Below, one piece after another: positions 9,330 to 64,000 of a stretch of DNA of 64,000 nt (the first letter of the stretch is position 1; every line of letters begins with the position of its first letter). The DNA is from Trypanosoma brucei (Eukaryota), in contig CH464491.1 in NCBI GenBank assembly GCA_000002445.1, forward strand, positions 64,001 to 128,000, read 5' to 3'. The position numbers and the translations under genes are program-made. Under the pieces are notes generated by a model. It ran no database searches. It was not told the origin of the DNA and worked only from the letters and a program-made list of their open reading frames with translations.

Positions 9330-9602
9330 TCAACCTGTTTTCCACAGGAGAATGGAAATCTGACCAACGTAGAAATAAATGAAGTGCTTGCTCTCGTGCA
9401 CGACATCAGCGCCAAAGTTTCGGCCGGCAATGCACTGCCACGTGGGATTGTGACGCTTATCAAACTCTTTTTTGATGTGCGCAGCAATATCTCGCTCAAG
9501 TTGATGTTCCTTCACGGCGCGGGCAGCTACCAGGAGTGCATCGTTTTGCATCTCTTCACTGATGTCACTCAGTTTTACATTGGTCTTGCGATCACTCATC
9601 AT
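9330..9602 (-). CDS. DYNLL: Dynein light chain LC8 (DYNLL family)
   Basis: The translation ...[75 protein letters not shown] is near-identical to the canonical LC8 consensus ([42 protein letters not shown]). It is 89-90 aa; the start is probably the second Met, at 9599. Confidence 0.9.
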
Positions 9603-9966
9603 CTTTGCGTGCTGGACGGTAAAGTTCCTCTACAACTAGAAGAAAATTATATTAAAATTAAATGAACAGAGGCAAAGGGAGGGAGAGAAATTAGGATGCG
9701 CGATATCTGAAAACTATACTGCACGCGATAACGGCACCTCCAGGCGGACACCGGTTTCGGAAAATCATCGGCTTAGCAGCAGAGGGTAACAGAACAAGAC
9801 AATCACGGTAGTACTTGCACCACTATGACAATAAAATGCCAACAAACTGGAAGTTGCTCACTTTAAAAAAAAAACACGCGAGCATACGTACACGTACACG
9901 AATTGTCATACAACCTGACTAGCAGACGTAAGGCGCTACGAACCTTTACTGTGGTTCAAACAAAAA

Positions 9967-45985: not shown

Positions 45986-46024
45986 GCTTGAAAATTAGAG
46001 CTGTTGTGCAACACAAACAGAGAC

Positions 46025-46095
46025 ACACACACACACACACAAAGGCAGAACCGTACACCTATAAGAAGAAAAAATAAGAAATACGTAAGTTTCGA
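46025..46095 (-). promoter_or_regulatory. Polypyrimidine / (TG)n tract upstream of the Era-GTPase gene; candidate splice-acceptor region
   Basis: + strand: acagagacacacacacacacacaaaggcagaaccgtacacctataagaagaaaaaataagaaatacg. It is pyrimidine-rich on the coding strand, about 40-110 nt upstream of the ATG at 45985. Confidence 0.45.
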
Positions 46096-47725
46096 AACCA
46101 ACCATTTGGAGAAATAAGACGATTACAAACACGTCAAGAACAGGGGGAAAAAAGGGAGGTAAAGCGCCTGGAGGAAACAAACCATTGAAGGGAAGGTGGT
46201 TCAGCATTTACCTCACTTAAACCGCAACCTCGTCGAACAGTAAGCACACGAACAAATGTGTGCATGTGAAAATAATAAACACGAACAACTTTCCCAATTG
46301 TGGCGAAATTTTATGATAATGATGGTAAGGAGGAAGAAAGGAAGAGGAGGAGAAGGGGGAATAAAAAAAAAATGCGACACAAAACTCCGCGCATCCGGCA
46401 GCTGCTGACATCAATCATAAAACCGGCAGAAATTGGTAACACACACGCACATGAGCCCACAGTAAAGCTGTGAACATCAGTGAGCTCATATACATTCTTT
46501 TTTATATATATATTTCTCTCGTAAGGAAGGAGGAGGGAAATTTACCGAAATCGCGTGAGACTACTGCACCCCTCCCTTCCGTGTTAACTATAAATGTAAG
46601 CAACTCGCCACTGCTTCTCCACAAACGGTAAATGAAACATGTGTTGTTTCTTGTTTCTGTTATTTTTCTGTTTTCTCTTTTTTTTTCTCTTGTGGCTGTT
46701 GTTGTTGTTTTTATTTTTTTTCCCCCTTTTGGTATGGCTGTTGTCTACAGATTTGATACGCCGCTGTACTCCCGTCCCAGTCGGCGTATGGCACCACGGC
46801 GAATAAATAGAAATACCATTGTACCAACTATTCCAATTAGCAGTAAATATGCAACTAAATACCGTTCCCGTGGGATCTCCGGTTGTTGTTGGCGTTGTTG
46901 TTTTTGTTGGAGTTGCTCATGAACCTTCGCGGCAATGGAGACATTTGTAATATTTTCCATATTCCACTACAAGTAAATATTATCAAAATAAATGGCACCA
47001 AAATACACCACTTACAAACTGGACACAAATTCGATGGAAAAATACTTGAAACAGTAAAAACGAAAACGAAAAAAAAAAGAACTACAATAATAAGAATAAT
47101 AATGATTCATTTATTTTTTGTTAATATTCGAAACAAGAAGAAAAAAAAAAGGAACAAAGTAGAGCTTGTTAATTTGTTTTCTTTTACAGCATCATGAGCA
47201 AATGATATGAATGATAAGCACAAAAAAAAAGATACCGACAAAATATAAACATGAGGGCAAGTTTTTAAAAAGAAATATGTGAATGTTACTGCAATAGGAT
47301 CTGGGGAAATTCGCACTGAATGGTGAGAAGTTTACCAAATGTTCAAAAACAAAAATAATTATATGGACACACAACCATCACAACTTTAAATGACCGGTTG
47401 AATACTCATTGGAACACGCCAAACTCTCAAAGAAATATTTCTCAACATTGCGCTCAAGCAAACGATGCAGTAGTAGCAAAAAGGCATGTAACTAAAATAG
47501 GCGGTAAGCAACGAGGAAAAGGAAAAGAAAAAAAAAGGAACGCAACAATAAAATATTCCTACAAATATACACAGTACCAATATATGAAGTGCGGTTCACA
47601 ACTACACCGAAGAGAAAATCGCGGTTGAGGTACAGAAGGATTTTAAAAAACAAAAAGAAAAAGAAAAACATTAGTGACTGTAACACGTCATTCCACACAC
47701 AATCTTTTTATATGCTTTCCTCCTC

Positions 47726-47795
47726 CTTTTCTTTTCTTTTCTTTCCTTTTCTTTTTCTTTTCTTTCCTTTCCTTTCCTTTTCTTTCCTTTTTCAT
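47726..47795. repeat. (TTTCY)n pentanucleotide-like pyrimidine microsatellite
   Basis: ttttcttttcttttctttccttttctttttcttttctttcctttcctttccttttctttcc. Confidence 0.85.
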
Positions 47796-47832
47796 ATATC
47801 ATATTATATTTTCTTTTTCTTTTTTTCCCCCT

Positions 47833-48306
47833 TTACGTTTCAGCACCACATCGGCGCAATTCCTCCTGCAGTACGCGACAACACTCCGCGAAAGGCCTCC
47901 CGCTTCCACAGCAGCATGACGGAGCATCCGGTGGTGAATTAATGAGATTTTGACGGAATGCCTCATCTCGAATGACGCGAATGGCCTCCGGAGTCCCAAT
48001 ATTTTTTAGCGCATTAAATTCAACGCATCGCCTCCGTAATGACGCAATTGTGCCGAATCGCTCGTGAATATTAGATTTAACGCCTTCTCGTGGTATTTTC
48101 CGTCGCTGCCTCCAACCCAAAGCTGCAAATATGGCGATAAAAGTAGTAACAATAACATACATACGCAATGAATCTTGATGAAGCCTACTGATAATAACTG
48201 CACCAAACCACCACACAATTAACCAAAGAATGCGCCTCACCCATCGCTTTTTGCTTTTTAACGAAGCCCGCTGCCTTCGCTCCGAAATATCTGAAGGTGG
48301 AGCCAT
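47833..48306 (-). CDS. Small membrane protein, 157 aa, with a C-terminal SEC-C-type metal-binding motif
   Basis: Basic N-terminus, then two hydrophobic segments (ILWLIVWWFGAVIISRL, VIVTTFIAIFAALGW), then CCCGSGRPFAECC, which matches the SEC-C motif (C.CGSGKK...CC). It is the only credible ORF inside an ~8.9-kb low-complexity region. Confidence 0.5.
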   Translation of the reverse strand: MAPPSDISERRQRASLKSKKRWVRRILWLIVWWFGAVIISRLHQDSLRMYVIVTTFIAIFAALGWRQRRKIPREGVKSNIHERFGTIASLRRRCVEFNALKNIGTPEAIRVIRDEAFRQNLINSPPDAPSCCCGSGRPFAECCRVLQEELRRCGAET

Positions 48307-49667
48307 TAGTTTCTAAAAGGAGGAGGAGGGGGGGACAATATGCGCAAATACGGAAGATGATACAACAAAATATATATATATATATATATATATTATTATT
48401 ATTATAAAGAGGATAGATCACAAGTGAATAAACGGGCGACGTAAACTGCATTCACAAATTGAACCATAAACTTTTTCTCACTCTTTTTGAGGTGACGATA
48501 TCATGGCGGCAAAAAAAAAAAAAGAGGAAAGCAAAATTAATAACACCGTCGCAGTTACTCACATGAGTTTTGTAATAGTTCCATAACATCAAAAATGCAC
48601 CTTCTAATAATTAGGATGAAAAATATAAAAAAAGGCTCATTCCTCCCCTCATCAGCTCTCAGTATTGACTTGAGCATCACTCCGTTCAGATTATAATACC
48701 ATATAATATAAAAGTGTAAGAGATAAGAGGAAGAAAAGAGGCTCCAGCACATTAACGGAAAAATAATACACACAAATCACTAAAGTGATGTTAATAACAA
48801 CCTCAAACTTCAATAAATAAATCAATATATATATATATATATATTAAATAAATAAATATGTATATTGATTTATTTATTTGATATAATGAAGTTTTATATG
48901 GTGTTTACCAGTACCCGAAAGGGAATACAACCGATCCAACGCACTTTTACAACATCATCAATGTAAGCCAAAAAGACCCGAAAGGATTTCTTTTGCTGCC
49001 ACTTTCAACACAACTCCATCATTACTCCTATCATTTATACCTAACATACGCACTGAATAGTAAAGAAGAGAGAAATGAAGAAAAATGAAGAAAAAGGAAA
49101 AAATAGAAAGAAAAATAGAAGAGTCATTAAACAATGATGAGTTATTGCAGTAAACATTCACAAGTCAAATCCGTATATTTAATGAAAGGAGGGGGGGCAG
49201 TCACACGCAAAGCTCCTGAAGGTTTCGCTGGGGGCAAGGCAACTTCATACAGCGGAGAAGACTTTTTTTAAAAGAGAAAAAAAGCGCCAGAACCATCAGC
49301 TACACACCAACAAAATAAAAAAAAAAAGGAGAGCGCCACTCCACTTTAACCATGCATATATTCACACAACACCCTCTTTTTCCTTGATTCTCACACTCTT
49401 TTTTTTCCCCCATTCTTCCTCTTCTTCTGTCCTTCCTTTTTTTTTAAAACCTTTCTCCCTTTTTCCACCATATAGAAATAAACGTGAACATTTAAATATG
49501 AATGTATACCTTTTTTTTTCACCTTTTGGGTACAGAGCTTTGACTACCACATGCAGAGCATACATATGTTAATCCCACAAAAATAATATAAATAGATACA
49601 GATATACTTTTTTATTTATATTTGTGCTTGCATGTGTGTGCGCGTGCGTGCGTGCTTGTGTTTGTTT

Positions 49668-49690
49668 GTTTGTTTGTTTATATCCATGTG
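49668..49690. repeat. (TTTG)5 preceded by (GTGC/GCGT)n
   Basis: gtgtgtgcgcgtgcgtgcgtgcttgtgtttgtttgtttgtttgttta. (TTTG)n recurs at 50087-50106, 50252-50274, 56986-57022 and 61897-61918. The complement (CAAA)n occurs on + at 51676-51700 and 60775-60800. Confidence 0.85.
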
Positions 49691-51825
49691 TATAACCATA
49701 TACAAATGTATTTTATATTATATCAATACGCTGTCTTTGCTAATTTTCTTTTTTGTTTTTTTTGGTTTTGTTTTCTTTTCTCCTTCTCTTGCTTTTGATA
49801 TTTTTCCCCTCTTTTTTTTTTGCTTTTTTCTTATTCCTTCTTCGTTGTTGCTTCCTCAATTTTACTTCTGCTTATAAATATATATATATATATATACTAC
49901 CCAACCATTCTTCCAGGTAATTCAGCGCTGATGAGTATCGACTGTGAAATACTATCTCTAACAATCCGTAACAAAAATAAAACTGAAAAAAAACATTTTT
50001 TACCAATCGTCGCTACATCCAAATAATATGAAAAGGGCTCAGCACATCTCATGTTCATTTGGGAAGCGAAGACTCGCGGCTCCTTTTGTTTGTTTGTTTG
50101 TTTCTTCTTTTCTTTCTTTCGTTTAAACTCTTCTTTTTCCACTTCGACGTTTTTTTTTCTTTTTTTCCTTTCCATTCTTCCCTTTTCGTTTCCCGCTCAC
50201 ATCCCTTTTTTTTCCCCCTCTTATTTTGAATTTTTGCTTCTTTTCCCTTCTTGTTTGTTTGTTTGTTTGTTTGCTCTTTTTTTTTCTTCTTTATTTTGAT
50301 CTGACGTATTCGTTTTCGCTAGTTATTCCTTTTGTTTTCATAAAACACAAACGCCGCTCTCTCTCTCTCTCTCTCACACAAATTTCTTTCTTTCATTGTT
50401 TTTTTTTTCCTCTTTTGATCCTTTTTTTTTTTCTGCTACTATTGTTTTTGACTTAGTCATGAGCCTCATTTTCCCTTCTGTATTTTTCCCCCCTTAGAAT
50501 CCGTTCCACTCATTTATATATATATATATAATTTATAAATATTTAAATTTATTGTGAAAACCTCCTTTACGCCGACGCATGCGCGCTCTCACTTGTCCCA
50601 CCCTTTTTTTTGGTTCTTTTTTTTTTCTTGTGTGTCTGTCTTTGCGTATATTTTGTTTGTTTCTTCTCTTTTCTGCATTTTCTGCATTTTCTTCATGCCA
50701 CATTTCCACTCCAATCCTTTCGCCACTTCCGTTCCCTTTCATTTCCTTCCCATCATTATAACATTACTGTTCATACATAATATTCCCCAAATACAATATA
50801 AAACAGCGGTACCACATTTAAAAATAAATTAAAAAATTAAAAAATAAAGTAAAGTTAAGGTAAATAAAAGACATAAAAATAAGAAAAATAAGAGAAAGAA
50901 AAGCGAACCGCTGAAAACACACACATATATGCGCGTAAAAAACAAAAAAACAAAAGAAACAAAAGGGGAAAAGGAACAAAACAGAACAGAACAGAACTGA
51001 TGAGGGAAAGAAATGAAAGAAATGGGCAAAACGAAGAGAAGAGGCACCGAAAGAGTAAAAGTCATCTTTTTCTGTCTTTTATTTTTTTTTTTCGTTTCAT
51101 GGCCACAAAACATGAAGCCATACACGCACGTATACTCATGCACACGGTAAAAGCAGATGATTCCGGTAATAATTTTTTTTTGTAAAAATAAAAAAGAAAC
51201 CCCCAAAAAAAAAAATACACAAAAAAATGGTAGGTAACAAAAAGCCGCTGGTATATAAACACACTATATGATGAATCGTAAATATTGTGTTACTTATCAA
51301 ATGTTCATGATCCTCTTCCCTCACACACACACACACACAAACATACCGTAAGAGAGAAGATCAGGGACACTTCCAAACACAATAAAACGTAAAAAAAAAA
51401 AAAGAACGAAAAATGAGAGGAAATTCAGGCGGGACGACGCGAGAACTTTTCGAAAGGGAGGAATCGGTAAAATAGTGCATAACAAAAGGAGAAAAGAAAA
51501 AGAGAAAAAGAAAAAAAAGAAAAAAAAAAGAGGAGAAAAAAGGGAAAAGAAAAAAGAAAAAAGGGAAGAGGGAAAGAAGACAACAACGGTCAACTGGAAC
51601 GAAGGAAACCCACATATGAAAATAACTGGGTGGTGAAAACAGCAAAAATAGCATATGAACAACAACAACAACAACAAGAACAAACAAACAAACAAACGAG
51701 CAAAAAAAAGTAGAAAAAACAAAAACAAAAACAACCAAAAACTGACCACCCAAATTTGCCTAACACACGACACAAGAAATAATAGCCAAAAAGTATGCGC
51801 GAAGAAATATGAAAGCGAGGGAGTA

Positions 51826-51878
51826 TAATTAAATGAAATGAAATGAATGAACGAATGAATGAATGAACGAATAGTGGG
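51826..51878. repeat. (GAATGAAT/GAACGAAT)n, an imperfect octamer/tetramer repeat
   Basis: aaatgaaatgaaatgaatgaacgaatgaatgaatgaacgaat. Confidence 0.85.
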
Positions 51879-52763
51879 CATGAGATTGCACTTTTCAGTA
51901 GTTCAAGCCACTCAGAGGTGTTGTGAATCAAAAAAAAAAAATGTAAAACATGGACAAAGAAAACAGAAAGGCAAACACACACACAAAACAAAAAGTAAAG
52001 GAGATTTGCTTCAACCACATATAATGTGATTTAGAAAGAACAAAACAACAAACAAAAGGGAGAAAGGTACGTTCATGATGCACACAAAAAAACAAAAAAA
52101 CAAATACGAATTTGTACCAAATAAAAACAAAAAAGAAGTTAAGAGACACATTTTGCGTACGGACGCACTCAAAAATAAAAATGGTGCAGCGGTACCCAAA
52201 AGAGAGGAGTAGGGAAAAGGGGGACATACATGATGCCAACTGTAATGGTGACAGGAACAACACACACTGAAACGAAAACAAAACAAAACAAAATACCAAA
52301 CGAGACATGCGCTTAACAATGCAGAGTATTTCGCTTCAGCTCGTTTCGCCTCGTTTCTCATTCCTTTTTTTTTCATTTTTTTCTTTCATTTTTTTTTTTG
52401 CGATGTACCTCTCCCAACTCATTGCATCCTCTCATGTCATCTTGTGTTTTTTTTCCGCATTCCTTTTTATGTTGTTATTTCATCATCATCATTTTCATCA
52501 CAATAATCTCCTCTCTTCGGCAGCACATGCACTTCCACAACTTAGTGTGTGTATGTTTCTCTATCCCCTCCTTTTTTTTTTTGAATTCTCTCTTCTTTTC
52601 ATTCTTTTAATTGTTCGTTCGTTTGTTCTCCTCTGCATTCACTCAACTGTCCTTTCCTCTCATATTCAACGGAATGTGACATGTGGAGAATTGACAGACA
52701 TTTCAACGCGTCAAGTAAATGCTCCAAATCATCATGAGGATCTTTCTTCAATCTCATCTTGTC

Positions 52764-52795
<32 letters not shown>

Positions 52796-54955
52796 AAATC
52801 AATATTACCCCTTCGTTCATCCTCTCTTTCTTCCCTATTTTCCTATTACTTTTTCATTTTTCTTTTTTCCCTTCTGTTTTTTTTTATTTTTAAAGAAAAG
52901 GTTTCCCTCGCACTTTTCTGTCCGCACACATCCACACACACAAAAACAAACACACATGCAAAATCTCTTTCTTTACTCTTTCCTTTTTTAAAAAAAAAAA
53001 ATTTCCCCTAATCTTTCCAAATATTTATTCTCACTACCGTCAGGCAACTCTTCTCACTTCCTCTTCTTGGGTTTCTCTCGTATGTGATGTTATGTATTAT
53101 TTTTTTTCTTTTTTTTTGGGGGGGGGAGGGGAAGTGGAGACGAACACTGCTGTAAAATGTGTCTGTTTGCATAAGATGCGGGTTCACCTTCATTCGGTGG
53201 GGAATAAAGAGGGAGAAAGAAAGAGAGAAGTAGTTAAAAATAAAAAAGAGAAAAAAAAAGAAATGAAATGTGTATGTAACTGACTTCAGGAATATGTTGC
53301 GGGTAAATAAATATTTATTTTTGGACTCCAACTACTTTCATATTGCCACCATAATATTCCCCACATTCACATCCATTACTCCGTCGTATCGCGTTGTACC
53401 CTTTTTTTTTTATTTATTACTTTAATCCTAATCTCAACCACCTCAACACCATCCTTTTCAATTGCATTCTTTTCTCCTCTCCTCTTTTTCTCCCCTTTTG
53501 CTATATATTTCTCACCTTTTCTTTTCTCTCTTTTTTTTTTATTGTTTTGTACAATCAACTCTGTATGTTGTCACAATACGCGCATGGCTCCCTATACAAA
53601 AGAAAAACACAAATACATGTACACACGAAAAAGCGGAGACACATACGTCTTTCTTTCCAACGACGCGCTCGACGTGGTTGTGCTTAGGTTTTCATATTAT
53701 AATTTATTATTTTTTTTTAATTTTTCACGCTCAAAAATTGATTTCATTATGTTCTCCTCATTCCTTCCACTTCCACTTCCACTTCTCCCACCTCTTTCTG
53801 TTTCTCTTTCTGTTTGTTTCCCTTCCTTTTTCTTTTTGCGTTTTTTTTTCCACCTTTCATTCGTTCTTTTCAACCGGGTCTGGCTCACTTCTTGCTGAAG
53901 GTTCCCTTCATTATCATATTATTATTATTATTATTGCTAGTGAGCTATTCTTTTCTTCCCTTCCCTTTCCTTTCCTTTTTTTGGATTTATTTATTTTTAT
54001 TTATCATATTTTTTTTTTCTGTTTCTTATTTTTTTTTTGCCCTCTCCACTATACTTTTATACTTTAACCCTTAAGTTAAATAAACAAATAAAACACACAT
54101 TGCATCTCGGTTATGATATCTTATAGCATCATGCCTTTACCTCAATAAGATATTTCCCTTTTGCCCTTTGTTTATCTGTAAATAAATAAATAAATATAAA
54201 TATGTATACACGCATACCAAAATGCATATACTTAAATACTTTTGTTGAAATTGTATCTCTTCCTCCCTGTTTCCTTCTCTCCCTCACATTTCCGCTATCA
54301 TTTGTTTCACCATCTTCATTTTATCCGTTGGCTAATTTTCCTGATTACCGTTTCTTCTCTTTGGCTTTGCCAACTCCTCCCTCTTTTTTTCTTTTTTTCT
54401 TTTTTTTCTTATTCTCCCATCTCTTCCTCCCTTCTCTCATTTGTGTCAAATTACCCCTTCCTAATATTTTCTTTTGGTTTTTGTTTCATTTCATTTTCCT
54501 ACTCGTTTACCCTTTATGAACCTTTCCGTTTCGGTACACATCACTTATCCCTTCTTTTTCTTATTATTATTATTATTATTCTTATTATTATTATTATTTC
54601 TTTTCTTTTTCCCTCCACCCATCACCCCTCTTCCTCATCCAATTCGATCCAATCCAACATTCTTTCACATCTGACATCAGAGTGCATTCTGTACCGTAAC
54701 GAAAGAAAAAAAATACACACAGAAATATATATATATATATATATATATACTCATTCTTTGATGTTTTTTTTTTCTTTTCGTGTCTGAAAAGAGAGAAGAA
54801 AAAGAAACAATAACTATAACAATAACAATAACAAGTAACAACAAAAACAATAGTAATAATAATAATACGGCCAAAGAGTAAAGAGTAAAGAGTAAAGTCA
54901 CACCTGCCCACAAATATGCATCTCACATATCACATAAAAGTCACTTTTTACCCCT

Positions 54956-55615
54956 TCATTTACGGGCAGGCCGACCGCTTTGTTGCCCAGTTTGACCCGG
55001 TGCCTGCTGCGGAGGTGGTGGTGGGGGAAGTTGAGTTTGTTGAGGCGGTGCATGCATCATATACTGCTGATACATTGCCATCATTTGTTGTTGTGCATAT
55101 GGATTAGCAACGGGAGGATAAGCACCATAGCCACCATACCCGCCATAACCGCCATACGCATTGAAACCATTGTTCATGTTACGCCCACGTTGATGACCGC
55201 TAGCAGCCAGCGCTACCTTCAGTCGTTTGTTGAGGATTACAAAACCATTCAATGATGCAATCGCCTGTTGAGCACTCGAGGCGCTCTGAAACTTCACGAA
55301 ACCATAACCGCGACTTTGACGAGTCTCCCGATCACACACAATTTTAACCGACTCAATTGCCCCGAAGCGCTCAAACAACTGCCGGAGTTGCACCTCATCA
55401 ACAGTAGTTGGAATATAATTTACCATAAGATTGCGTAGAAAATCGGGTTCTTGATTCACTTGACCCAACGGTTGCGGAGGAGGTGCCTGTTGTTGTTGCT
55501 GCTGCTGCTGTTGTTGCTGTTGAGCGGGTTGTTGTTGTTGTTGCTGCAACTCCGACTGCGATTGCCCGGTGGTGTTGTAGGGGTCACATGGAGAAGCCAG
55601 TGGAACCTGAGACAT
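54956..55615 (-). CDS. UBP1: Single-RRM RNA-binding protein of the kinetoplastid UBP1/UBP2 family (the longer paralog, 219 aa), with a Gln-rich N-terminus and Gly/Tyr plus Gln/Pro-rich C-terminus
   Basis: RRM: RNLMVNYIPTTVDEVQLRQLFERFGAIESVKIVCDRETRQSRGYGFVKFQSASSAQQAIASLNGFVILNKRLKV, with RNP1 RGYGFVKF. The N-terminus has a poly-Q run (QQQQQQPAQQQQQQQQQQQQ). The C-terminus has a GGYGGYGGYGAYPP box. Assigning this copy to UBP1 rather than UBP2 is a guess. Confidence 0.8.
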   Translation of the reverse strand: MSQVPLASPCDPYNTTGQSQSELQQQQQQPAQQQQQQQQQQQQAPPPQPLGQVNQEPDFLRNLMVNYIPTTVDEVQLRQLFERFGAIESVKIVCDRETRQSRGYGFVKFQSASSAQQAIASLNGFVILNKRLKVALAASGHQRGRNMNNGFNAYGGYGGYGGYGAYPPVANPYAQQQMMAMYQQYMMHAPPQQTQLPPPPPPQQAPGQTGQQSGRPARK

Positions 55616-55639
55616 TTGTTTTGCGACTGCACCGTCAAA

Positions 55640-55720
55640 AAAATCAAGAAGAAAGTAAAAACAAAAATATAAAAAAGAAAAGAAAAAGAAAAAAAAGACC
55701 TTAATCTTTATGTACCGAGA
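55640..55720 (-). promoter_or_regulatory. Polypyrimidine tract upstream of the UBP1-like gene; candidate splice-acceptor region
   Basis: + strand: caaaaaaatcaagaagaaagtaaaaacaaaaatataaaaaagaaaagaaaaagaaaaaaaagacc. This is nearly pure purine on +, so pure pyrimidine on the coding strand. Confidence 0.5.
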
Positions 55721-57907
55721 TGCGACGGATTATTTGGAGAAAGAAGGGGAAAAAAAGAATGAAAATTGCTTTGATTAAAAGATAAACAAACGGACAGGAA
55801 GTGAAGATTGAAGTGGAAACATCGGAAGTATCCCGCAGCATTATTTGAAATAGGAGGATGGTAAGAAAAAAAAAGTGGAAGTTAGAGTAGGGAGTGAATG
55901 TGGATTATATGAAAAAGAAAGATGATTACCAAACAAAAATATTAATGGGGAGAGGAGGAGGAATTCAAAAAAAAAATTAAATGAAGAAGGAAAGAAGGGA
56001 AAGGAGCGAATGCAAAGTTAAAGGATTAAAATCATAGAAAATAATCATTGCAAGATTCCCTTCTGAGTTAAGCCCCACTTAACATTTCTGCTGTCGTTGC
56101 AGCAAATTGTTGTCCTCCTCTCTCTCTCCTAACTCTTTTTTTTTGTTGTTGTTGTTACAACTGTTTTTTTTTCTTTTTATTATTTCCTCTCTTTCCTCAT
56201 CCTTTTCCCCCTTCTTGTCTGTTTATCTATACTTTTGTTCACCTATATATATATATATATATATATTTGTATTTTTGGTTTTTGTTTTGTCCCCTTTGTT
56301 TTGGAGGGATGTTTTTCTCTTTTTTTTTTTTCTTCTTTCGTTTTAATCACCTAATTATTCTCCTTTTTTTTTCTATTTAATTTTCCTCCTTTCAGAAGAA
56401 AAAAAGGAGCACCTACTCCCTTTCGCTTTCATCTTTATATTTATGTTATTTCATCCCTCTGTTGTTGTTTTTTTTCTTCTTCGTATTATTTTTCCCCCGT
56501 TACTTCTGCTAAAACTATACCATCAAACTCCCACCGCCTTGTTTTACAACACCACTGCATCGCAGCGAAAGGAAGGGGAGAAAAAAAACAAAACAAAAAA
56601 AAACACACACACACATAACACAAGAAAGAAGGAAGGAAGGAAGGGCACGCACACAGAAAGATTTAAAAAAACAAAACAAAATAAAATAAAGAAGAAAAAG
56701 AAAAAGAAAAAGAAAAAAAAGAGCGGGGAGAACAATAACAATAATAATCATCATAACAAAAGTTACCCAAGATGAGATGTTACGTCACACACGGGGTCAA
56801 AGAAACTCCTCCTCCTCCACCTCCCCTTTCCTCCTCTTGTCATAAAAAACACACAACATTTACACCTAATCCCATTTTTAACTTCCATTCATAATTCTCA
56901 TCCCATCATAACTCGTCAACTCATCCACATAAATTTTCTCCCGTTCCTCCTTTTTTCTTTTTCTTTTTGTTTTTTTTGTCACTTTGTTTGTTTGCTTGTT
57001 TGTTTGTTTTTGTTTTTGTTTGACGTTTCCCCCACACCCACACATACATACACATACACAATTGCATATCATATATGTAATATATATTATGTAAAACGAC
57101 ATACGTGTGCGTTACCTTTCTCTCGCCCTCTGTGTCCCTCTTCGTATCACAACTTGCCGGTGTTTCTTTTAATTTTTATTTTTTATTTTCTTTTATTCAT
57201 CTTTTTCTTCTGTTTGATGGTTTGCTTTCAAGTCCTCACCTCATTCTTTCCTTCTTTTTCTTTCCCATTTGTCAACATTTCGCTTTATTTCATTCTTGCT
57301 CTTTTTCTTTTTTTTTTTATATTTCTTTACTTTGCTTATTATCCTCAAACTGATGTAACTGACGTTGCTACCTTTTGTGGTAAATGCAGTAAATTTATTT
57401 AAGGCAACGCATAGGAAACAATAGAAAAAAAAAAGAAAAAAAGAAAAGAAAGAAAGAAGCGGGAACACGAAGAAAAATGAAAAAGCAACGAACTGACACC
57501 ATCGCAAAACAACAAACACTTTCGCGTGTATCACTTTTTTGTTTTATTGTTTTCTTTTTTCTTTCGCTTAAATTGCAAAAACTCCAACACTCGTGCATTC
57601 ATGTTTCCCTTCACTTCTCTTCTTTTTCACTTTTCAATTTGTTGCTGTTGTCGTTGTTTATTTATTTTTTTTTTTAATCTCTGCTGACAATTCCCCCTCC
57701 TTCTATTGGTGTTTCACCATTTTATTTAATATCCTCTTATAAAAAGCGCCAATTTTCATTTTTTTTTTTAAATTTATTTCCCCCTCCCCTCCCCTCCCCT
57801 CAAGTCCACCGTAGTGAAGTCACTTGAAAGTAACAAAATAAAATATACCATCATAAAAAGTATTTTATTTTATTTCTTTGTTTCGTATCCACATATCCAA
57901 TAATAAG

Positions 57908-57911
<4 letters not shown>

Positions 57912-57944
<33 letters not shown>
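57912..57944. repeat. (AT)16 microsatellite
   Basis: atatatatatatatatatatatatatatatat; further (TA)n tracts occur at 4873-4891, 48371-48392, 49877-49896, 52765-52791, 54725-54748, 56245-56266, 60302-60320 and 63781-63802. Confidence 0.9.
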
Positions 57945-57950
<6 letters not shown>

Positions 57951-60900
57951 ATACGTATATAACTACATATAAATATATGAATACAGGCACGTGAGGGAAA
58001 AACAAGAAACACAAACACAAACTGTCACACAAGAAAAAAAAAAACGACAAAAAGTTTACCGCAACCGCACGATGCCACAGCGGCAATAATAACAACCAAA
58101 TAGAGATGGAAAAATATGGGAGGAAAAATAAAAAGAAAAAAGAAGAAAAGAAGAAAAGAAGTACCGACGAACAAAAACAAAAAACACAAACATAAACACA
58201 CAAAGGAAGAGAAGTGTACGAGCCCAACTAAGGCAATGAAAAATTGGAAGAAAATAAAGGAGGTACGAGTTAGAAATGAAACACAAACACACAAACAAAG
58301 TCATTTCATTTCTTTTTTTATGATTCTTTTTTTTTAAAAAAAACCCATATACAAATACAAACACAATAACAATAACAACAGCATCGGTAGCGGCAATGAA
58401 TTTCCTTTTTTTTTCTTCATCTTCCTCTCATCCTCTTTTTCCTCTCACTTATATTTATATCAGTAATTTGCATCCTCTCAAACATAAGCCACTAATCCTC
58501 TCTTTACTCTGCCAGTGAAGGCATTGAGAGGACGTGAGAAAAGAAAAAAAGATGAAAAAGGAAAAGGAAAAGGAAGAGGAAGAGGAAGAGGAGGTAAGGA
58601 CAAAAAAGGAAAAGAAAAAAAGGAAAAAAAAGAAAAAAAATTTCAAAAAAACAACAATAACGACAATAACAAATACTCAAAAAAAAAAACACAAAAAGAA
58701 AAGAAAAGAAAAGAAAATCCGCTGAACAGAAGAAAAGGTATGGACTGCGGTGATATAATATTGACGGTGGTGTCAAGAAGGTCTCCTTCCCATGAGATTA
58801 ATTTCACGCGATAAAAAAAAGAAAAAGAGGAGAGGAATGAAAAAAAAAACAGAAAAGACGCAATCTTTTTTTTTCCTTTCGTATTTTTCTTTTTTTTTTT
58901 CTGTCACGTTTTGCTTTGTTGTTGCGGTTTCATTTTCTCAAGCATTTGAGGGACGTAACATCAAAGGTGCTGTTGTTTTTTTTTTCTTTTGCGCATGCGC
59001 GGAGTTCGTAGACATTTAAAAAAAAATTTTATATATATAAAACATACATATTATAAATATATAAATGTAAATATATGTATAGAATCAACGGATGGATTAA
59101 TTGAAACTGAAGAAAAAAAAAAGACCAACGTGTACACAGGTGAGCGACAACAATAATAATAATAATAATAACCGACACACACACACACACACAAAGGGAT
59201 TAAAAGAAAGGTAAAAGAAGGCGAAACAGCGGTGGAATATAGAAGTTTTTTTCTTTTTTCTTTTCAAACAAAAAAAATAAAAGATAAAGAAAAGAAAAGG
59301 AAAAGAAAGGAAAGTAAAGTAAAGTAAAATTGTGTCCTACGCCCTGTTCACATTAAAGCAGCACGCGACTGGAAACAAAAAATAAGGGGATTCAACACCA
59401 CAAACGCAAAGCATCATTTGGTGGCAAAACGAAACACAAAAAGAAATTTCATTTCTTTCGACTATTAAATCGCTCACCCCCTTTTTCCTTTTTTTCTTTT
59501 TCTTTTTCTTTCTTTTTTGCCTTTTCCTTTCACTTTTTTTTTTAAAAAAAAAGAAGAAAAAAAGGAACTTCTTTTTTATTTGGTTTTAGTCTCACTTACC
59601 TCCATCCCGCTCGGTTCATTTAACCTTCTCTTTTAATCCCCTGAAACTTCACCTCCTCTCTCTTTTCTTTTTCTTTTCATTTTCCTCCTCTTAAACTCTC
59701 GCATGCATTTTTTCTTTCTTTTTTTTTTTTAAACCCTCCCCCTTCCCCTCTTCACTTCAGCCGTCTAATCAGGAGGCTATACAAGAGGGAAAGGAGTATT
59801 TTTATTTTTTTTTAAAAAAAAAGAAAAAAGAAAAGAAAAGAAAAGCGAGAACCACTCGTTACAAAGGCGAGAAACAAAGCGGAACCAAATAGAGAGAGGA
59901 AAAAAAAAGAAAAAGGAAGAAAGTAAACAACAAACAACAACAAGTCAAATATTAACGAATAAGCGCACAACCAGGTAAGCGCACACATATATACATATAT
60001 ACATATATTTAATATTCACTCATATATATATATATATGTATACGTACACGTGGGCTACGGAGCCACAACAACAATAATGATGGTGATGATAATGATGATG
60101 ATGATAACAACAATAACAATAATAGTGATAATAGTAACAGCAACGGAGTTCAAAGCAGAATCAAAAGAAAAAACAAAAAAGAAGAAGCGGGAAACAAACA
60201 GTAGACAAAAACAAACAATTTTTTTCCTTATTTTCCTAATTACAAAACATTAGCAGTGCAGATCGGTGACATCCACCACAACAGGTTGAAGAAACTAGGA
60301 GATATATATATATATATATAAAGAGGTAGTCTGCTACGTAATTACCCACACGTGGAGAGACATAAAAATATAAAATCAATGGGGAAACATAGCCAGACAA
60401 ATCATAATAACAATAACAATAACAATAGTAATAGTAATAACCGAAACTCTTTGAATCCAATGCACACACCGCACCCTTTTCTTATATCGTCTTATCATGC
60501 GCAAAAAACTCACATGACAATTTAGCAGCGGATACGAAAAGAAATGTAACGAAATGTTTAAGAAAAAAGGGGGTGCGCGTACTGAACCAGTGACAAAAAG
60601 GAGCGAGGGGTATAAAAGGTAGCAAAAGAAAAAAAAAAGGAGGAAAACAAACAAAAAAAAGAGAAGTTCGGCGCCTGCATTTAACGCAACGTAGCGCGAG
60701 AACGAATAGGAAGAAAAACAAACCGACAGATGTCGGCACCATACAGGGCCAGGCAAAGCCGCGCAGCCAGAAGAAACAAACAAACAAACAAACAACAACA
60801 AAGAGAAGAGAAGAGAATAGGAAAGAAAAAAAAAGAAAAAAGCCACAGTCCATAACAAACAAAGGTAAGACCATGTCACAATCCAGAAGAAAACCAAAAC

Positions 60901-61853
60901 AGATATAATAATAATAATAATGATGATGATGAAAAATAAGAGAAAAGGAGGAAAATCGTCGGCACGGCGACGCTCGTCTGTCATCATTTCGTGTGTTTTC
61001 TAGGCAATAGAGAGGATCTTCTTTTTTTTTCCTTTTTGAAATAAAATGAAATGAATAAAAGGGTCAGCGCAACGCGAAGCTAATCAAACAATCACAAAAT
61101 ATCAAATAAGCGGCTAGGCGGGGTTTCTTTTTTTTTTTTCATCACATATTCGTATCGTCCCCTTTTTTTTTCTCTCTTTTCGCGATATTCAAACAGTTTT
61201 CAATTCCATTGGCGGGTTCCAACCGGGTATTGGGGGGACGACAGTCATTTACTTTGTTGTTGTTGTTGTTTCTTTTGGTAAATGGAAAAATGAAGAAGGA
61301 ACTGAGCGGATCAAATTTAAAAAAAGGAAGGAAGGTAGAACAAAAAAAAAAACAAGCGCCGTCCAACTTCACTGCTACGCAACAACGACATCAACGTTTC
61401 AGAAAACCGAATTTCAATGACAATAATAACATTTAGCAAATGCTGGTCGTTTATTTGAAATACTACTCCTCCCATTCTTTTCCTTTTAGCTTCTCCTCTG
61501 GTTGTTCTTATGTTGTGGCGTTCCCCAAAATCTGAATAAAAATACACCTCTCTTTTTTTTTTTTCTTGGTCTTTCCAATTTTATTCGGATTTCAACTTTG
61601 CTTTGTGTTTGCTTCTGGGTTTTGGCTTCTTCACCAGTTTCTTTCATTCTCCCCCATTTGAGATTCCATTGCAGACATTAAATCCCCACCCTTTTTCCTT
61701 TGTTGTTGTTGTTGTTAATAATTTTCCTCTCTTACTCCACTTGACTCTCTGTGTTACTCTTTTGCTTCTCTTTTTTTTTTCTCTCTCTTTCCCCTCGCGG
61801 AACACTTTCTTTTACCTTTGAGTCTTTCCTGTTTTGGGACCATGTTTTACAGT

Positions 61854-61854
<1 letters not shown>

Positions 61855-61896
<42 letters not shown>
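61855..61896. repeat. (AT)21 microsatellite
   Basis: atatatatatatatatatatatatatatatatatatatatat, read directly. Confidence 0.9.
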
Positions 61897-61899
<3 letters not shown>

Positions 61900-62639
61900 T
61901 TGTTTGTGTTTGTTTGTTTATTTTTTTCTTTAATCTTAACTGTCCACACATACTTAAATACACCAGAATGATTCAGTCTGCTCGACGTTAAACGAGCAAA
62001 TAGAAGATAACTCAGATGTCAAATATTTACTTACAAAAATATACGTTTGTGGGACGCGGAATTTTGTTATTGTTTCTGTCGTTGATGCCTCTGTCTTCTT
62101 TTTTTTTTCTTCGGTTTCGCCTCCTTTCTTTTTATTTTATTTTATTTTTCTTTTTAAGCCCTCTCCTCTATTCCCTCTCTATCCAACACCTTTCTGTCAC
62201 TATTTGCTCCACTTCATTCCTCTTCTCTTTGTGTTGTTCCTCTTTATTCGTTTTCTCCGACTCATGCTTCATTTTCTTTGTTTAAACCCTCTCGTATTAG
62301 TGGAAAAAAAAAATTCTTTGCATGGTGTGATTTCGACCTTTGTGACATTTCACACTTACCTCTGTTTTTTTTTCCTTTCCTTTCCTTTCTTTTAATGTTG
62401 GTTTGTTTTGTTTTGTTCTTTCGTCTCTTTTTCTCCTCCCCTCCATGGTTTTCTTTTTTTTTTCTTTTTTTAACTTCGTCATGATTCATCCATTCATTTG
62501 GGTCTAGTGGGGAGGGAGAGCCGCTTCTCCAACTATAAGGCTCATATTTTGTACACAAATATAAATGTATGTGTGACAACAAAATAAAGTAATAACAGTA
62601 ATAATGGTAATAATAATAATAATAATAAGCGAGAAGCAA

Positions 62640-62760
62640 GTAAAACCCAACCCCAACAAAACATAACATAACATAACACAACATAACATGACATGGCACA
62701 ATATGACATGATATGATATGTGATATGACATGACATGACATGGCATGGCACAAAACACAC
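62640..62760. repeat. Compound (ACATA)n/(CATGA)n/(ATATG)n microsatellite block
   Basis: aacataacataacataacacaacataacatgacatggcacaatatgacatgatatgatatgtgatatgacatgacatgacatggcatggcaca. Confidence 0.85.
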
Positions 62761-63189
62761 ATACAAACATACACACAAACAAACACAGACAACAGCTCTG
62801 TTTCAACGCCTCGCTTGTATGAAAAGAGCTCCCACTCCGCTCCGCCCCCCCCCCTCTTTTATTTTCTTCTTCATTTTATTTTTGCTTCAAAAATAAAAGG
62901 GAAACTTTCCTTCCCATTTCCTCCCTCTTGTGCCCTTACTTCTTTACATACACACTCCGACAGCCTCCTGGGGCATTTAAAGTTCATATTCCTTTTCTTT
63001 TCCCTTCTTTTTTTTTCTTTTTTTTTTGCATTTTCTGTCATATCACCTTTAAAATAATTAAAATTACTTATCCTTTAAAAAAAAAACCTTCCATTCTCTC
63101 TCACACCCCTCCATCTGCCCCACCGACCCTTGAAGGGAAGCTGACGGGTTGAGAACCCCCCAAAAAAAAAAAAAGAAAAAGAAAAAACA

Positions 63190-63717
63190 TTACTGACGGG
63201 ATATCGGAGGCATCGGGGAAGCGGCCATCATATAATGTTGTTGCATTGCCATCATTTGTTGTTGTGCATATGGATTAGCAACGGGAGGATAAGCACCATA
63301 GCCACCATACCCGCCATAACCGCCATACGCATTGAAACCATTGTTCATGTTACGCCCACGTTGATGACCGCTAGCAGCCAGCGCTACCTTCAGTCGTTTG
63401 TTGAGGATTACAAAACCATTCAATGATGCAATCGCCTGTTGAGCACTCGAGGCGCTCTGAAACTTCACGAAACCATAACCGCGACTTTGACGAGTCTCCC
63501 GATCACACACAATTTTAACCGACTCAATTGGGCCGAAGCGCTCAAACAACTGCCGGAGTTGCACCTCATCAACAGTAGTTGGAATATAATTTACCATAAG
63601 ATTGCGTAGCAAATCGAGATCTTGATTCATTGCTCCCATAGAAGGAGGAGGTGCCTGTTGTTGCTGCTGCTGAGGAGGCTGTTGTTGCGTTGTGTAATAC
63701 TGCGGTTGCTGGGACAT
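63190..63717 (-). CDS. UBP2: Single-RRM RNA-binding protein, UBP1/UBP2 family (the shorter tandem paralog, 175 aa)
   Basis: Its RRM and Gly/Tyr box are encoded by DNA more than 99% identical to the copy at 54956-55615. The N-terminus is distinct (MSQQPQYYTTQQQPPQQQQQQAPPPS) and the C-terminus is shorter (...AASPMPPISRQ). Confidence 0.8.
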   Translation of the reverse strand: MSQQPQYYTTQQQPPQQQQQQAPPPSMGAMNQDLDLLRNLMVNYIPTTVDEVQLRQLFERFGPIESVKIVCDRETRQSRGYGFVKFQSASSAQQAIASLNGFVILNKRLKVALAASGHQRGRNMNNGFNAYGGYGGYGGYGAYPPVANPYAQQQMMAMQQHYMMAASPMPPISRQ

Positions 63718-64000
63718 TACGTAAATTACAGAACCTTATTATAAGTTATGATATAATACAAAAGTAAGATAGATAAATAAATATATATATATATATATAT
63801 ATGTATAGATATATATATATGTACTAGCTACGTTTTGCCAAGCTTTCTTTCCTTATTTTTCCTTCTAACCCTTTTTTTTGTCTTTGGTCTCTTTGCTTAC
63901 TTCCTATGTTCTAAAAAAAAAAAAAAAGACCTTTTCGATGATGTTTTTTTTTTTTTAATTTAATACCTTGTTAGCTTTCTGTAACTGTCCTAATTATTTC

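What the first reader, a model, noticed from the sequence alone, without database searches (positions are those of the whole stretch)
46000..63189. Very large low-complexity regions without ORFs flank the RRM genes, built from alternating homopurine and homopyrimidine blocks
Between the SEC-C gene (ending 48306) and UBP1 (54956) lie 6.6 kb with no credible ORF. Between UBP1 (55615) and UBP2 (63190) lie 7.6 kb, and between Era (45985) and the SEC-C gene 1.8 kb. These are far longer than the 0.4-1 kb spacers elsewhere in the window. They consist of kilobase-scale blocks that switch between pyrimidine-rich on + (for example 49380-50500, 52310-54700, 56100-56500, 57100-57800) and purine-rich on + (for example 50830-52300, 55650-56050, 56560-56760, 58100-58760). 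Purine-rich + blocks are long U/C-rich stretches in the minus-sense transcript and are potential processing signals. Pyrimidine-rich + blocks would be A/G-rich RNA. Either these are exceptionally long regulatory 3'UTRs for the RNA-binding-protein genes, which are plausible targets of autoregulation, or they hide non-coding RNA genes such as snoRNA clusters. They may also be processing-dead zones. All ORFs predicted inside them, for example 51321-51881, 52307-53011 and 60376-60987, are translation artefacts of F/L/S/K-rich composition.
Basis: seen in the sequence. Interest (0 to 1): 0.5.

Follow-up and report, generated by a model that had tools for sequence, protein, structure and literature searches.

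The report
Long 3'UTRs of trypanosome UBP1/UBP2
The two big gene-free stretches are the already annotated, unusually long (5.8 kb and 7.3 kb) 3' untranslated regions of the Trypanosoma brucei RNA-binding-protein genes UBP1 and UBP2, built from the purine-tract/pyrimidine-tract "code" already described for this parasite, so the finding is real but ordinary.

Summary
The window is T. brucei TREU927 chromosome 11, bases 64001-128000. This rests on exact protein matches and on seven ORF ends that match published UTR coordinates at an offset of 64000. The spacers are 6649, 7574 and 1847 nt, GC falls to about 0.33, and all eight listed blocks have the stated skew. Pure purine or pyrimidine tracts of 12 nt or more are 4-17 times commoner than in dinucleotide shuffles. 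The blocks are purine-rich or pyrimidine-rich (65-80%), 80-410 nt long and grouped into 1-2.4 kb super-blocks. They are not homopolymeric.

A published table lists window 49175-54956 as the UBP1 3'UTR and 55846-63190 as the UBP2 3'UTR. Three fragments from them were significant positive hits in a published reporter screen. The class is already described: long 3'UTRs on RNA-binding-protein mRNAs, dense in A-rich polypurine and U-rich polypyrimidine tracts.

I found no Rfam family, tRNA, snoRNA-like cluster, conserved ORF or Pfam domain inside. Orthologous loci in T. vivax, T. cruzi, T. theileri and L. major also have long spacers after both genes (2.4-9.5 kb), but share no sequence outside the coding regions.

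Verdict: already known, low interest.

The parts
63190..63717 (-). UBP2 coding sequence (Tb927.11.510, 175 aa, one RRM)
   Evidence: ORF. The exact protein is EAN79031/XP_828143 of T. brucei. RRM_1 domain.
55846..63189 (-). UBP2 3'UTR, about 7.34 kb, with 13 purine-rich and 8 pyrimidine-rich blocks (RNA sense)
   Evidence: UTR coordinates Tb927_11_v5.1:119846-127190 in PMC11405848 Supplementary Data 1, converted with an offset of 64000. Block map. Tract counts.
55616..55845 (-). Processing region between the UBP2 poly(A) site and the UBP1 start codon: two polypyrimidine tracts (24 and 28 nt), AG acceptors, and a short UBP1 5'UTR
   Evidence: Sequence read. Polypyrimidine tract and AG scan.
54956..55615 (-). 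UBP1 coding sequence (Tb927.11.500, 219 aa, one RRM)
   Evidence: ORF. It is 99% identical to the T. b. gambiense RNA-binding protein P0005.
49175..54955 (-). UBP1 3'UTR, about 5.78 kb. In RNA order it runs purine-rich for about 2.3 kb, then pyrimidine-rich for about 1.5 kb, then purine-rich for about 1.4 kb.
   Evidence: UTR coordinates 113175-118956 in PMC11405848 Supplementary Data 1. Block map.
51484..51580 (-). 97-nt uninterrupted polypyrimidine tract in the UBP1 3'UTR RNA, with an AG 36 nt downstream (an unused potential splice signal)
48307..49174 (-). Region between the UBP1 poly(A) site and the start codon of the SAYSvFN-domain gene, with five polypyrimidine tracts each followed by an AG
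47833..48306 (-).
   Evidence: Exact match to EAN79029. An orthologue lies in T. vivax at L002 16113-16625.
46160..47028 (-). Annotated small gene Tb927.11.485: a 57-codon ORF at 46855-47028 plus its listed 3'UTR at 46160-46855
   Evidence: The UTR is listed as 110160-110855. ORF. Its codon score is poor and it has no Pfam hit.
58400..58600 (-). Local hairpin in which a polypyrimidine tract pairs with a downstream polypurine tract
   Evidence: MFE -64.9 kcal/mol, z = -4.0, and 0 of 200 shuffles fold as well.
59690..59860 (-). Second polypyrimidine/polypurine hairpin
   Evidence: MFE -51.9 kcal/mol, z = -3.5, and 0 of 200 shuffles fold as well.
48407..50338 (-). Published reporter-screen fragment (peak_3958), a positive regulator overlapping the distal 1163 nt of the UBP1 3'UTR
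   Evidence: log2 fold change 5.9, FDR 0.052 against a hit threshold of FDR < 0.1.
52739..55370 (-). Published reporter-screen fragment (peak_3959), a positive regulator overlapping the proximal 2217 nt of the UBP1 3'UTR
   Evidence: log2 fold change 4.75, FDR 0.052.
61015..63658 (-). Published reporter-screen fragment (peak_3960), a positive regulator overlapping the proximal 2175 nt of the UBP2 3'UTR
   Evidence: log2 fold change 5.36, FDR 0.052.

Best explanation
The two large ORF-free regions are the 3' untranslated regions of the UBP1 (about 5.8 kb) and UBP2 (about 7.3 kb) mRNAs of Trypanosoma brucei. Each is followed by a short region carrying the polypyrimidine tract and AG that direct trans-splicing of the next gene and, coupled to it, polyadenylation of the upstream mRNA. 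All genes here lie on the minus strand of one polycistronic transcription unit.

The UTRs belong to the described class of long 3'UTRs on mRNAs for RNA-binding proteins, dense in A-rich polypurine and U-rich polypyrimidine tracts.

Proposed working:
1. Shown by others for this class, and by reporter fragments from these two UTRs: the A-rich polypurine tracts raise expression in a dose-dependent way.
2. Inferred: the U-rich polypyrimidine tracts bind abundant U-preferring proteins and can pair with the purine tracts, which modulates that effect.
3. Inferred from the DRBD18 and DRBD3 work: the many internal polypyrimidine-plus-AG signals must be kept unused by bound proteins, so that the mRNA stays full length.
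For: Identity of the window. Exact proteins are from T. brucei TREU927. Seven ORF ends in the window (21144, 24128, 28202, 46855, 54956, 63190, and the UTR spans) equal published UTR ends minus 64000.

UTR annotation and reporter activity come from PMC11405848 Supplementary Data 1.

The class is described in the literature.
- The median T. brucei 3'UTR is about 400 nt, and RNA-binding-protein mRNAs often have 3'UTRs several kb long (PMC6597758).
- 3'UTRs over 2 kb that are dense in both tract types are enriched for mRNA-binding genes (PMC11405848).

Composition measured here. Polypurine tracts on the sense strand run at 6.5-7.5 per kb, against 0-5.2 per kb (16 of 18 below 2) in the 18 other spacers of the window. 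They far exceed shuffles.

Processing signals sit where the annotation predicts. Internal potential signals number 18 and 25. DRBD18 and DRBD3 are reported to suppress such sites. Two local polypyrimidine/polypurine hairpins have z scores of -4.0 and -3.5.

There is no coding or known ncRNA signal inside. Independent assemblies agree: TREU927 has 7574 nt and DAL972 7570 nt between UBP2 and UBP1. Long spacers follow both genes in four other trypanosomatids.
Against: I could not see RNA-seq, spliced-leader or poly(A) reads. The UTR ends are taken from a published table that uses the database annotation, and one paper warns that such annotation is sometimes unreliable.

Two of the three reporter fragments include coding sequence, and one includes the native downstream splice site, so their activity is not mapped to particular tracts.

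Folding across a large pyrimidine-to-purine junction (50400-51300) is no more stable than shuffles (z = -0.48). Long-range masking is therefore not specifically supported.

In T. cruzi and T. theileri the tract density of the UBP spacers is no higher than in neighbouring short spacers.
Confidence: 0.88

Rival explanations
1. The spacers give rise to separate non-coding RNAs. These could be snoRNA clusters, or spliced and polyadenylated 'lncRNAs' cut out of the 3'UTR at internal polypyrimidine/AG sites.
For: There are 43 internal polypyrimidine tracts with a nearby AG. 1428 lncRNAs with normal processing signals are reported in T. brucei, mostly intergenic. Loss of DRBD18 or DRBD3 yields RNAs derived from 3'UTRs.
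Against: No Rfam family reaches its gathering score in the window, and the weak hits are (TA)n and purine/pyrimidine hairpins. There is no repeated cluster unit. Only one sense-strand C/D-box-like match lies in the spacers. There are no conserved islands across species. The listed UTRs span the whole regions. UBP1 and UBP2 are absent from the text-held supplements of the DRBD3 and nanopore lncRNA papers.
Confidence: 0.1
2. The regions are transcribed as UTRs, but their length and tract content are largely neutral. On this view low-complexity DNA expanded by replication slippage is tolerated rather than selected.
For: TREU927 and DAL972 differ by about 60 gap openings per 5.5 kb but by only about 1% mismatches. 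There is no sequence similarity outside the coding regions between species, or between the UBP1 and UBP2 UTRs. The repeat 'families' found are degenerate tracts only.
Against: In all five species the spacers after both UBP genes are the two longest in the sampled 20-kb locus. A stop-proximal purine-rich segment is present in all 10 cases. Fragments of these UTRs are active in the reporter screen. Polypurine tracts are enriched relative to most other spacers of the same window.
Confidence: 0.2
3. The purine/pyrimidine tracts act at the DNA level, for example through triplex or H-DNA, nucleosome exclusion, or pausing of transcription or replication, rather than in RNA.
For: There are pure tracts of up to 97 nt. 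A review notes that nucleosome phasing near processing sites may follow base composition.
Against: Nothing specific points to this. The reporter effect in the published screen is strand-biased, and inverting fragments changes their activity, which indicates an RNA-level effect.
Confidence: 0.04
4. An unannotated protein-coding gene, or an assembly artefact, lies in the spacers.
For: There are ORFs of 176-234 codons. The DAL972 annotation calls F/L/S-rich ORFs as genes inside the UBP2 3'UTR.
Against: Five of the six internal ORFs tested have no Pfam hit at E <= 0.01. The sixth (62262-62792) has only two weak hits about 10-18 bits below the curated cut-offs. Codon log-odds are -0.06 to 0.10, against 0.11-0.35 for real genes. 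tblastx against four species finds only the UBP1 and SAYSvFN coding regions. There are no N bases, and two independent assemblies are colinear.
Confidence: 0.02

Closest known systems
Long T. brucei 3'UTRs rich in polypurine and polypyrimidine tracts (Trenaman et al. 2024, PMC11405848), with RBP10, CFB2 and RDK2 as named examples
   Same: They are longer than 2 kb and are dense in both A-rich purine and U-rich pyrimidine tracts. They sit on mRNA-binding-protein genes and give positive reporter fragments. UBP1 and UBP2 are rows in that paper's data table.
   Different: UBP1 and UBP2 are not discussed by name in that paper's text. They are abundant proteins, not bloodstream-specific regulators. 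I used tracts of 12 nt or more as a proxy and did not run the paper's motif scan.
Long 3'UTRs of RNA-binding-protein and protein-kinase mRNAs in general (Clayton 2019 review, PMC6597758)
   Same: Several-kb 3'UTRs on RNA-binding-protein mRNAs, against a median of about 400 nt. The review describes them as riddled with low-complexity sequence.
   Different: None in kind. The review favours two explanations, low mRNA abundance or many binding sites, whereas UBP1 and UBP2 are highly abundant proteins.
DRBD18- and DRBD3-protected long 3'UTRs (RBP10, DRBD12)
   Same: They hold many internal polypyrimidine tracts followed by AG that must stay unused for the full-length mRNA to form.
   Different: I could not retrieve any data showing that UBP1 or UBP2 mRNAs are bound by DRBD18 or DRBD3, or are changed by their depletion.
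T. cruzi TcUBP2-TcUBP1 dicistronic unit (Jager et al. 2007, as cited in PMC11139272)
   Same: The gene order is the same, with UBP2 upstream of UBP1 and a kb-scale intercistronic region: 4.6 kb in the CL Brener contig, about 3 kb as stated in the paper.
   Different: A stable dicistronic intermediate has been reported for T. cruzi only. Whether one exists in T. brucei cannot be told from sequence.

Membership tests
Trypanosomatid long 3'UTR rich in polypurine and polypyrimidine tracts | Lies between a stop codon and the mapped poly(A) site of the same mRNA, on the transcribed strand | tested here: met
   The published UTR coordinates for Tb927.11.500 and Tb927.11.510 map to window 49175-54956 and 55846-63190. 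The offset was verified on five further genes. The underlying RNA reads were not seen.
Trypanosomatid long 3'UTR rich in polypurine and polypyrimidine tracts | Length above 2 kb, against a median of about 400 nt | tested here: met
   5781 and 7344 nt. Other listed 3'UTRs in this window are 109-695 nt.
Trypanosomatid long 3'UTR rich in polypurine and polypyrimidine tracts | High density of both A-rich polypurine and U-rich polypyrimidine motifs (the paper's criterion is more than 20 per kb by FIMO at p < 0.01) | tested here: inconclusive
   A proxy was used: pure tracts of 12 nt or more. These gave 6.5-7.5 purine and 3.8-4.8 pyrimidine tracts per kb, far above shuffles. The paper's own motif matrices were not available to run.
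Trypanosomatid long 3'UTR rich in polypurine and polypyrimidine tracts | Followed by a polypyrimidine tract and AG that serve the next gene | tested here: met
Trypanosomatid long 3'UTR rich in polypurine and polypyrimidine tracts | Regulatory activity when placed after a reporter | not testable with these tools
   Literature only: three fragments with log2 fold change 4.75-5.9 and FDR 0.052, against a hit threshold of 0.1.
snoRNA cluster or other known ncRNA gene | Match to a curated RNA family, or C/D or H/ACA box architecture in a tandemly repeated cluster | tested here: not met
   No family reaches its gathering score. Sub-threshold hits are low-complexity hairpins. There is no repeated unit. 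One sense-strand box-spacing match lies in the spacers. Families not in Rfam would be missed.
Protein-coding gene | ORF with genome-typical codon usage, a domain or homologue, and conservation in related species | tested here: not met
DRBD18/DRBD3-masked cryptic processing sites | Internal polypyrimidine tract plus AG inside a 3'UTR | tested here: met
   18 of 20 tracts (UBP1) and 25 of 34 tracts (UBP2) have an AG within 120 nt.
DRBD18/DRBD3-masked cryptic processing sites | Binding by the protein, and shortened mRNAs on its depletion | not testable with these tools
   The supplements with per-gene data were not held or did not list these genes.
Autoregulated RNA-binding-protein mRNA | The protein binds its own mRNA and changes its level | not testable with these tools
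   The support is indirect. [quoted passage not shown]

The most novel reading that the evidence does not exclude
The length and coarse compositional layout of the UBP1 and UBP2 3'UTRs are under selection across Trypanosomatidae, although the sequence itself turns over completely. The layout is a purine-rich segment just after the stop codon followed by alternating pyrimidine-rich and purine-rich blocks. The U-rich blocks may act as a sink or feedback sensor for the abundant U-binding UBP1 and UBP2 proteins themselves.
Probability: 0.2. Interest if true: 0.4.

Novelty: already known. Interest (0 to 1): 0.15.

Why it matters
It matters little beyond confirmation. The regions are annotated 3'UTRs of a well-described class, in an organism where almost all gene control is post-transcriptional. 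They are a good worked example of that class: 43 potential splice signals are skipped, and fragments of the UTRs boost a reporter.

The one modest addition is comparative. Both UBP genes keep multi-kb downstream regions and a purine-rich stop-proximal segment in five trypanosomatids with no sequence conservation. This argues that composition and length, not specific motifs, are what is maintained.

Tried and rejected
- Rfam at gathering and at permissive thresholds gave nothing credible. A tRNA scan gave none. A C/D-box spacing pattern gave one sense-strand match in the spacers and no cluster.
- Tandem and dispersed repeat searches found only degenerate tracts, (TA)n, (TTTG)n and (AAT)n, with no discrete element.
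- blastn and tblastx of the spacers against T. vivax, T. cruzi, T. theileri and L. major found no conserved island or ORF. The short tblastx hits are low-complexity pieces carried by sum statistics.
- The UBP1 and UBP2 UTRs show no similarity to each other. Identity stops at the coding region.
- Folding across the 50400-51300 block junction gave z = -0.48, so there is no extra stability.
- In a sliding 120-nt z-score scan, most outliers are artefacts of near-zero-energy homopolymer windows or (TA)n repeats. Only the purine/pyrimidine hairpins at 58400-58600 and 59690-59860 held up.
- An exact look-up of the 219-aa UBP1 protein found nothing in the collection.
- Hartmann et al. 2007, which would give the mRNA sizes, is not held.
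- Per-gene supplements of the DRBD18, grumpy, DRBD3, nanopore and Erben papers were not held or did not list these genes.

Full report
**What the window is.** All long ORFs lie on the minus strand. The 175-aa, 157-aa and 382-aa products are exact matches to T. brucei brucei TREU927 proteins EAN79031 (UBP2), EAN79029 (named a SAYSvFN-domain protein by UniRef) and EAN79028 (a G-domain protein). Supplementary Data 1 of Trenaman et al. 2024 (PMC11405848) lists 3'UTR coordinates on Tb927_11_v5.1. Subtracting 64000 from the UTR ends of Tb927.11.370.380.400.485.500 and .510 gives 21144, 24128, 28202, 46855, 54956 and 63190. Each of these is the low end of a minus-strand ORF in the window. The window is therefore chromosome 11, bases 64001-128000.

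**Checking the observation.** The spacer lengths are as stated: 1847, 6649 and 7574 nt. The 18 other spacers measure 340-2692 nt.
- GC drops to about 0.33.
- 37% of 100-nt bins in 45986-64000 are strongly skewed towards purine or pyrimidine, against 2% upstream.
- On the transcribed strand there are 50 and 49 pure purine tracts and 25 and 36 pure pyrimidine tracts of 12 nt or more. Dinucleotide shuffles give about 7 purine and 1.5-5 pyrimidine tracts.
- The bin-to-bin spread of purine content is 0.20, against 0.06 in shuffles.

The blocks are skewed rather than homopolymeric. At a 66% threshold they are 80-410 nt long and cover 40-50% of each region. They are grouped into super-blocks of 1-2.4 kb. 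The longest pure tract is a 97-nt pyrimidine run in the RNA at 51580-51484. There are no N bases. The independent T. b. gambiense assembly is colinear, with 7570 nt against 7574 nt between UBP2 and UBP1. An assembly artefact is therefore excluded.

**What it is.** The same published table lists the UBP1 3'UTR as 113175-118956 (window 49175-54956, 5781 nt) and the UBP2 3'UTR as 119846-127190 (window 55846-63190, 7344 nt), both on the minus strand. Other 3'UTRs listed for this window are 109-695 nt. The sequence fits the trypanosome rule that polyadenylation is set by the next trans-splice signal.
- Downstream of 55846, in RNA order, come 24-nt and 28-nt polypyrimidine tracts, AG dinucleotides, and then the UBP1 ATG at 55615.
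- Downstream of 49175 comes a run of pyrimidine tracts and an AG near 49055, with further tracts up to the SAYSvFN gene.

**Nothing else hides there.**
- No Rfam family reaches its gathering score anywhere in the window.
- The permissive search gives only sub-threshold miRNA-like hits on (TA)n repeats and purine/pyrimidine hairpins.
- There are no tRNAs and no repeated cluster unit. Only one sense-strand C/D-box-like spacing match lies in the spacers.
- Of the six internal ORFs of 176-234 codons that were tested, five have no Pfam hit at E <= 0.01. The sixth (62262-62792) has two weak hits well below the curated cut-offs.
- Their codon log-odds are -0.06 to 0.10, against 0.11-0.35 for the window's genes.
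- tblastx against four other trypanosomatids recovers only the UBP1 and SAYSvFN coding regions.

The 1.8 kb Era-to-SAYSvFN spacer does hold an annotated small gene, Tb927.11.485. Its ORF is at 46855-47028 and its listed 3'UTR at 46160-46855. It has a poor codon score and no Pfam hit.

**How it most likely works.** The literature describes this class.
- Trenaman et al. report that A-rich polypurine tracts raise translation in a dose-dependent manner.
- They also report that 3'UTRs over 2 kb dense in both purine and pyrimidine tracts are enriched for mRNA-binding genes.
- They propose that U-rich tracts mask the purine tracts by base pairing.

Three fragments from the UBP1 and UBP2 UTRs (window 48407-50338, 52739-55370 and 61015-63658) were enriched in the positive arm of their screen. 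Log2 fold changes were 4.75-5.9, reads in the negative arm were zero, and FDR was 0.052 against a hit threshold of 0.1.

In this window the UBP UTRs differ from the other spacers mainly in polypurine tracts on the RNA strand. They have 6.5-7.5 per kb, against 0-5.2 per kb in the 18 others (16 of them below 2). Pyrimidine-tract density is similar, at 3.8-4.8 against about 3 per kb.

Two local hairpins pair a pyrimidine tract with a purine tract and are more stable than all 200 shuffles (z = -4.0 and -3.5). A 900-nt fold across a major block junction is not (z = -0.48). Local masking is therefore plausible, but long-range masking is not specifically supported.

The UTRs contain 20 and 34 pyrimidine tracts, and 18 and 25 of these have an AG within 120 nt. 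DRBD18 and DRBD3 are reported to keep such cryptic sites silent in other long 3'UTRs. That this applies here is inference.

[quoted passage not shown] UBP2 and UBP1 mRNAs are among the 30 mRNAs most enriched with EIF4E3. Autoregulation is plausible but untested.

**Comparison across species.** Loci were fetched for T. b. gambiense, T. vivax, T. cruzi, T. theileri and L. major. The order UBP2 then UBP1 is kept. In every locus the spacers after both genes are the two longest among those sampled:
- T. vivax: 4.8 and 5.4 kb
- T. cruzi: 4.6 and 4.4 kb
- T. theileri: 2.4 and 3.8 kb
- L. major: 9.5 and 8.2 kb

No sequence similarity survives outside the coding regions. The UBP1 and UBP2 UTRs of T. 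brucei are also unrelated to each other. TREU927 and DAL972 differ mostly by indels, with about 60 gap openings per 5.5 kb, as expected for slippage in tracts.

The first 500 nt or so after the stop codon are purine-rich in all ten UBP downstream regions (0.54-0.72). The figure for 19 other T. brucei 3' regions in the window is 0.43 +/- 0.04. This comparison lacks per-species controls, and the ten regions are not independent. In T. cruzi and T. theileri the tract density of the UBP spacers is not above that of neighbouring short spacers.

**Verdict.** The ncRNA alternative finds no support. The result is a new look at a known feature, of low interest, with a small comparative note on conserved length and layout without conserved sequence.

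Noticed in passing
window 49175-63189; L002 5163-16112; L003 10502-20212; L004 10526-17356; L005 538-18768: In all ten UBP1 and UBP2 downstream regions of five trypanosomatids, the first 500 nt or so after the stop codon are purine-rich on the sense strand (0.54-0.72). The figure for 19 other T. brucei 3' regions is 0.43 +/- 0.04. No sequence is conserved.
   Followed up: partly
window 46160-47028 (-): The annotated small gene Tb927.11.485 sits in the Era-to-SAYSvFN spacer. The only ORF that fits the listed UTR end has 57 codons from a TTG start (29 from the first ATG), a negative codon score and no Pfam hit. A neighbouring 71-codon ORF at 46745-46960 has a better codon score (0.16) and a hydrophobic segment, but does not fit the annotation.
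   Followed up: partly
L002 16113-16625: The T. vivax orthologue of the SAYSvFN-domain gene is present (tblastn E = 6e-44) but is not among the genes called on that contig.
   Followed up: yes
L001 15265-15744 (+), 16583-16897 (-), 19175-19501 (-), 19802-20122 (-): The T. b. gambiense DAL972 annotation-159-aa genes with no Pfam family on record, inside the regions colinear with the UBP2 and UBP1 3'UTRs.
   Followed up: partly
window 55055-55522 and 63226-63692: UBP1 and UBP2 are 94.5% identical at the DNA level over the RRM and C-terminal part only, and identity ends abruptly on both sides. This is consistent with gene conversion confined to the coding region of an old tandem duplication.
   Followed up: partly
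L001 4276-7625; L003 6606-8132; L004 6650-7780: A third RRM gene two genes upstream of UBP2 (200 aa in T. brucei) is also followed by a longer-than-usual, tract-rich spacer: 3.35 kb in T. b. gambiense.
   Followed up: no
window 54956-55615 (-): The exact 219-aa TREU927 UBP1 protein is not in the 15-billion-protein collection, although UBP2 and the neighbouring genes are. The closest entry is the 218-aa DAL972 protein, which is 99% identical.
   Followed up: no
window 7275-9966: This is the only other spacer above 2 kb in the window (2692 nt). The published table lists a 3'UTR for Tb927.11.320 ending at window 9330, which implies a short gene at about 9330-9966 that was below my 150-codon ORF filter.
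   Followed up: no
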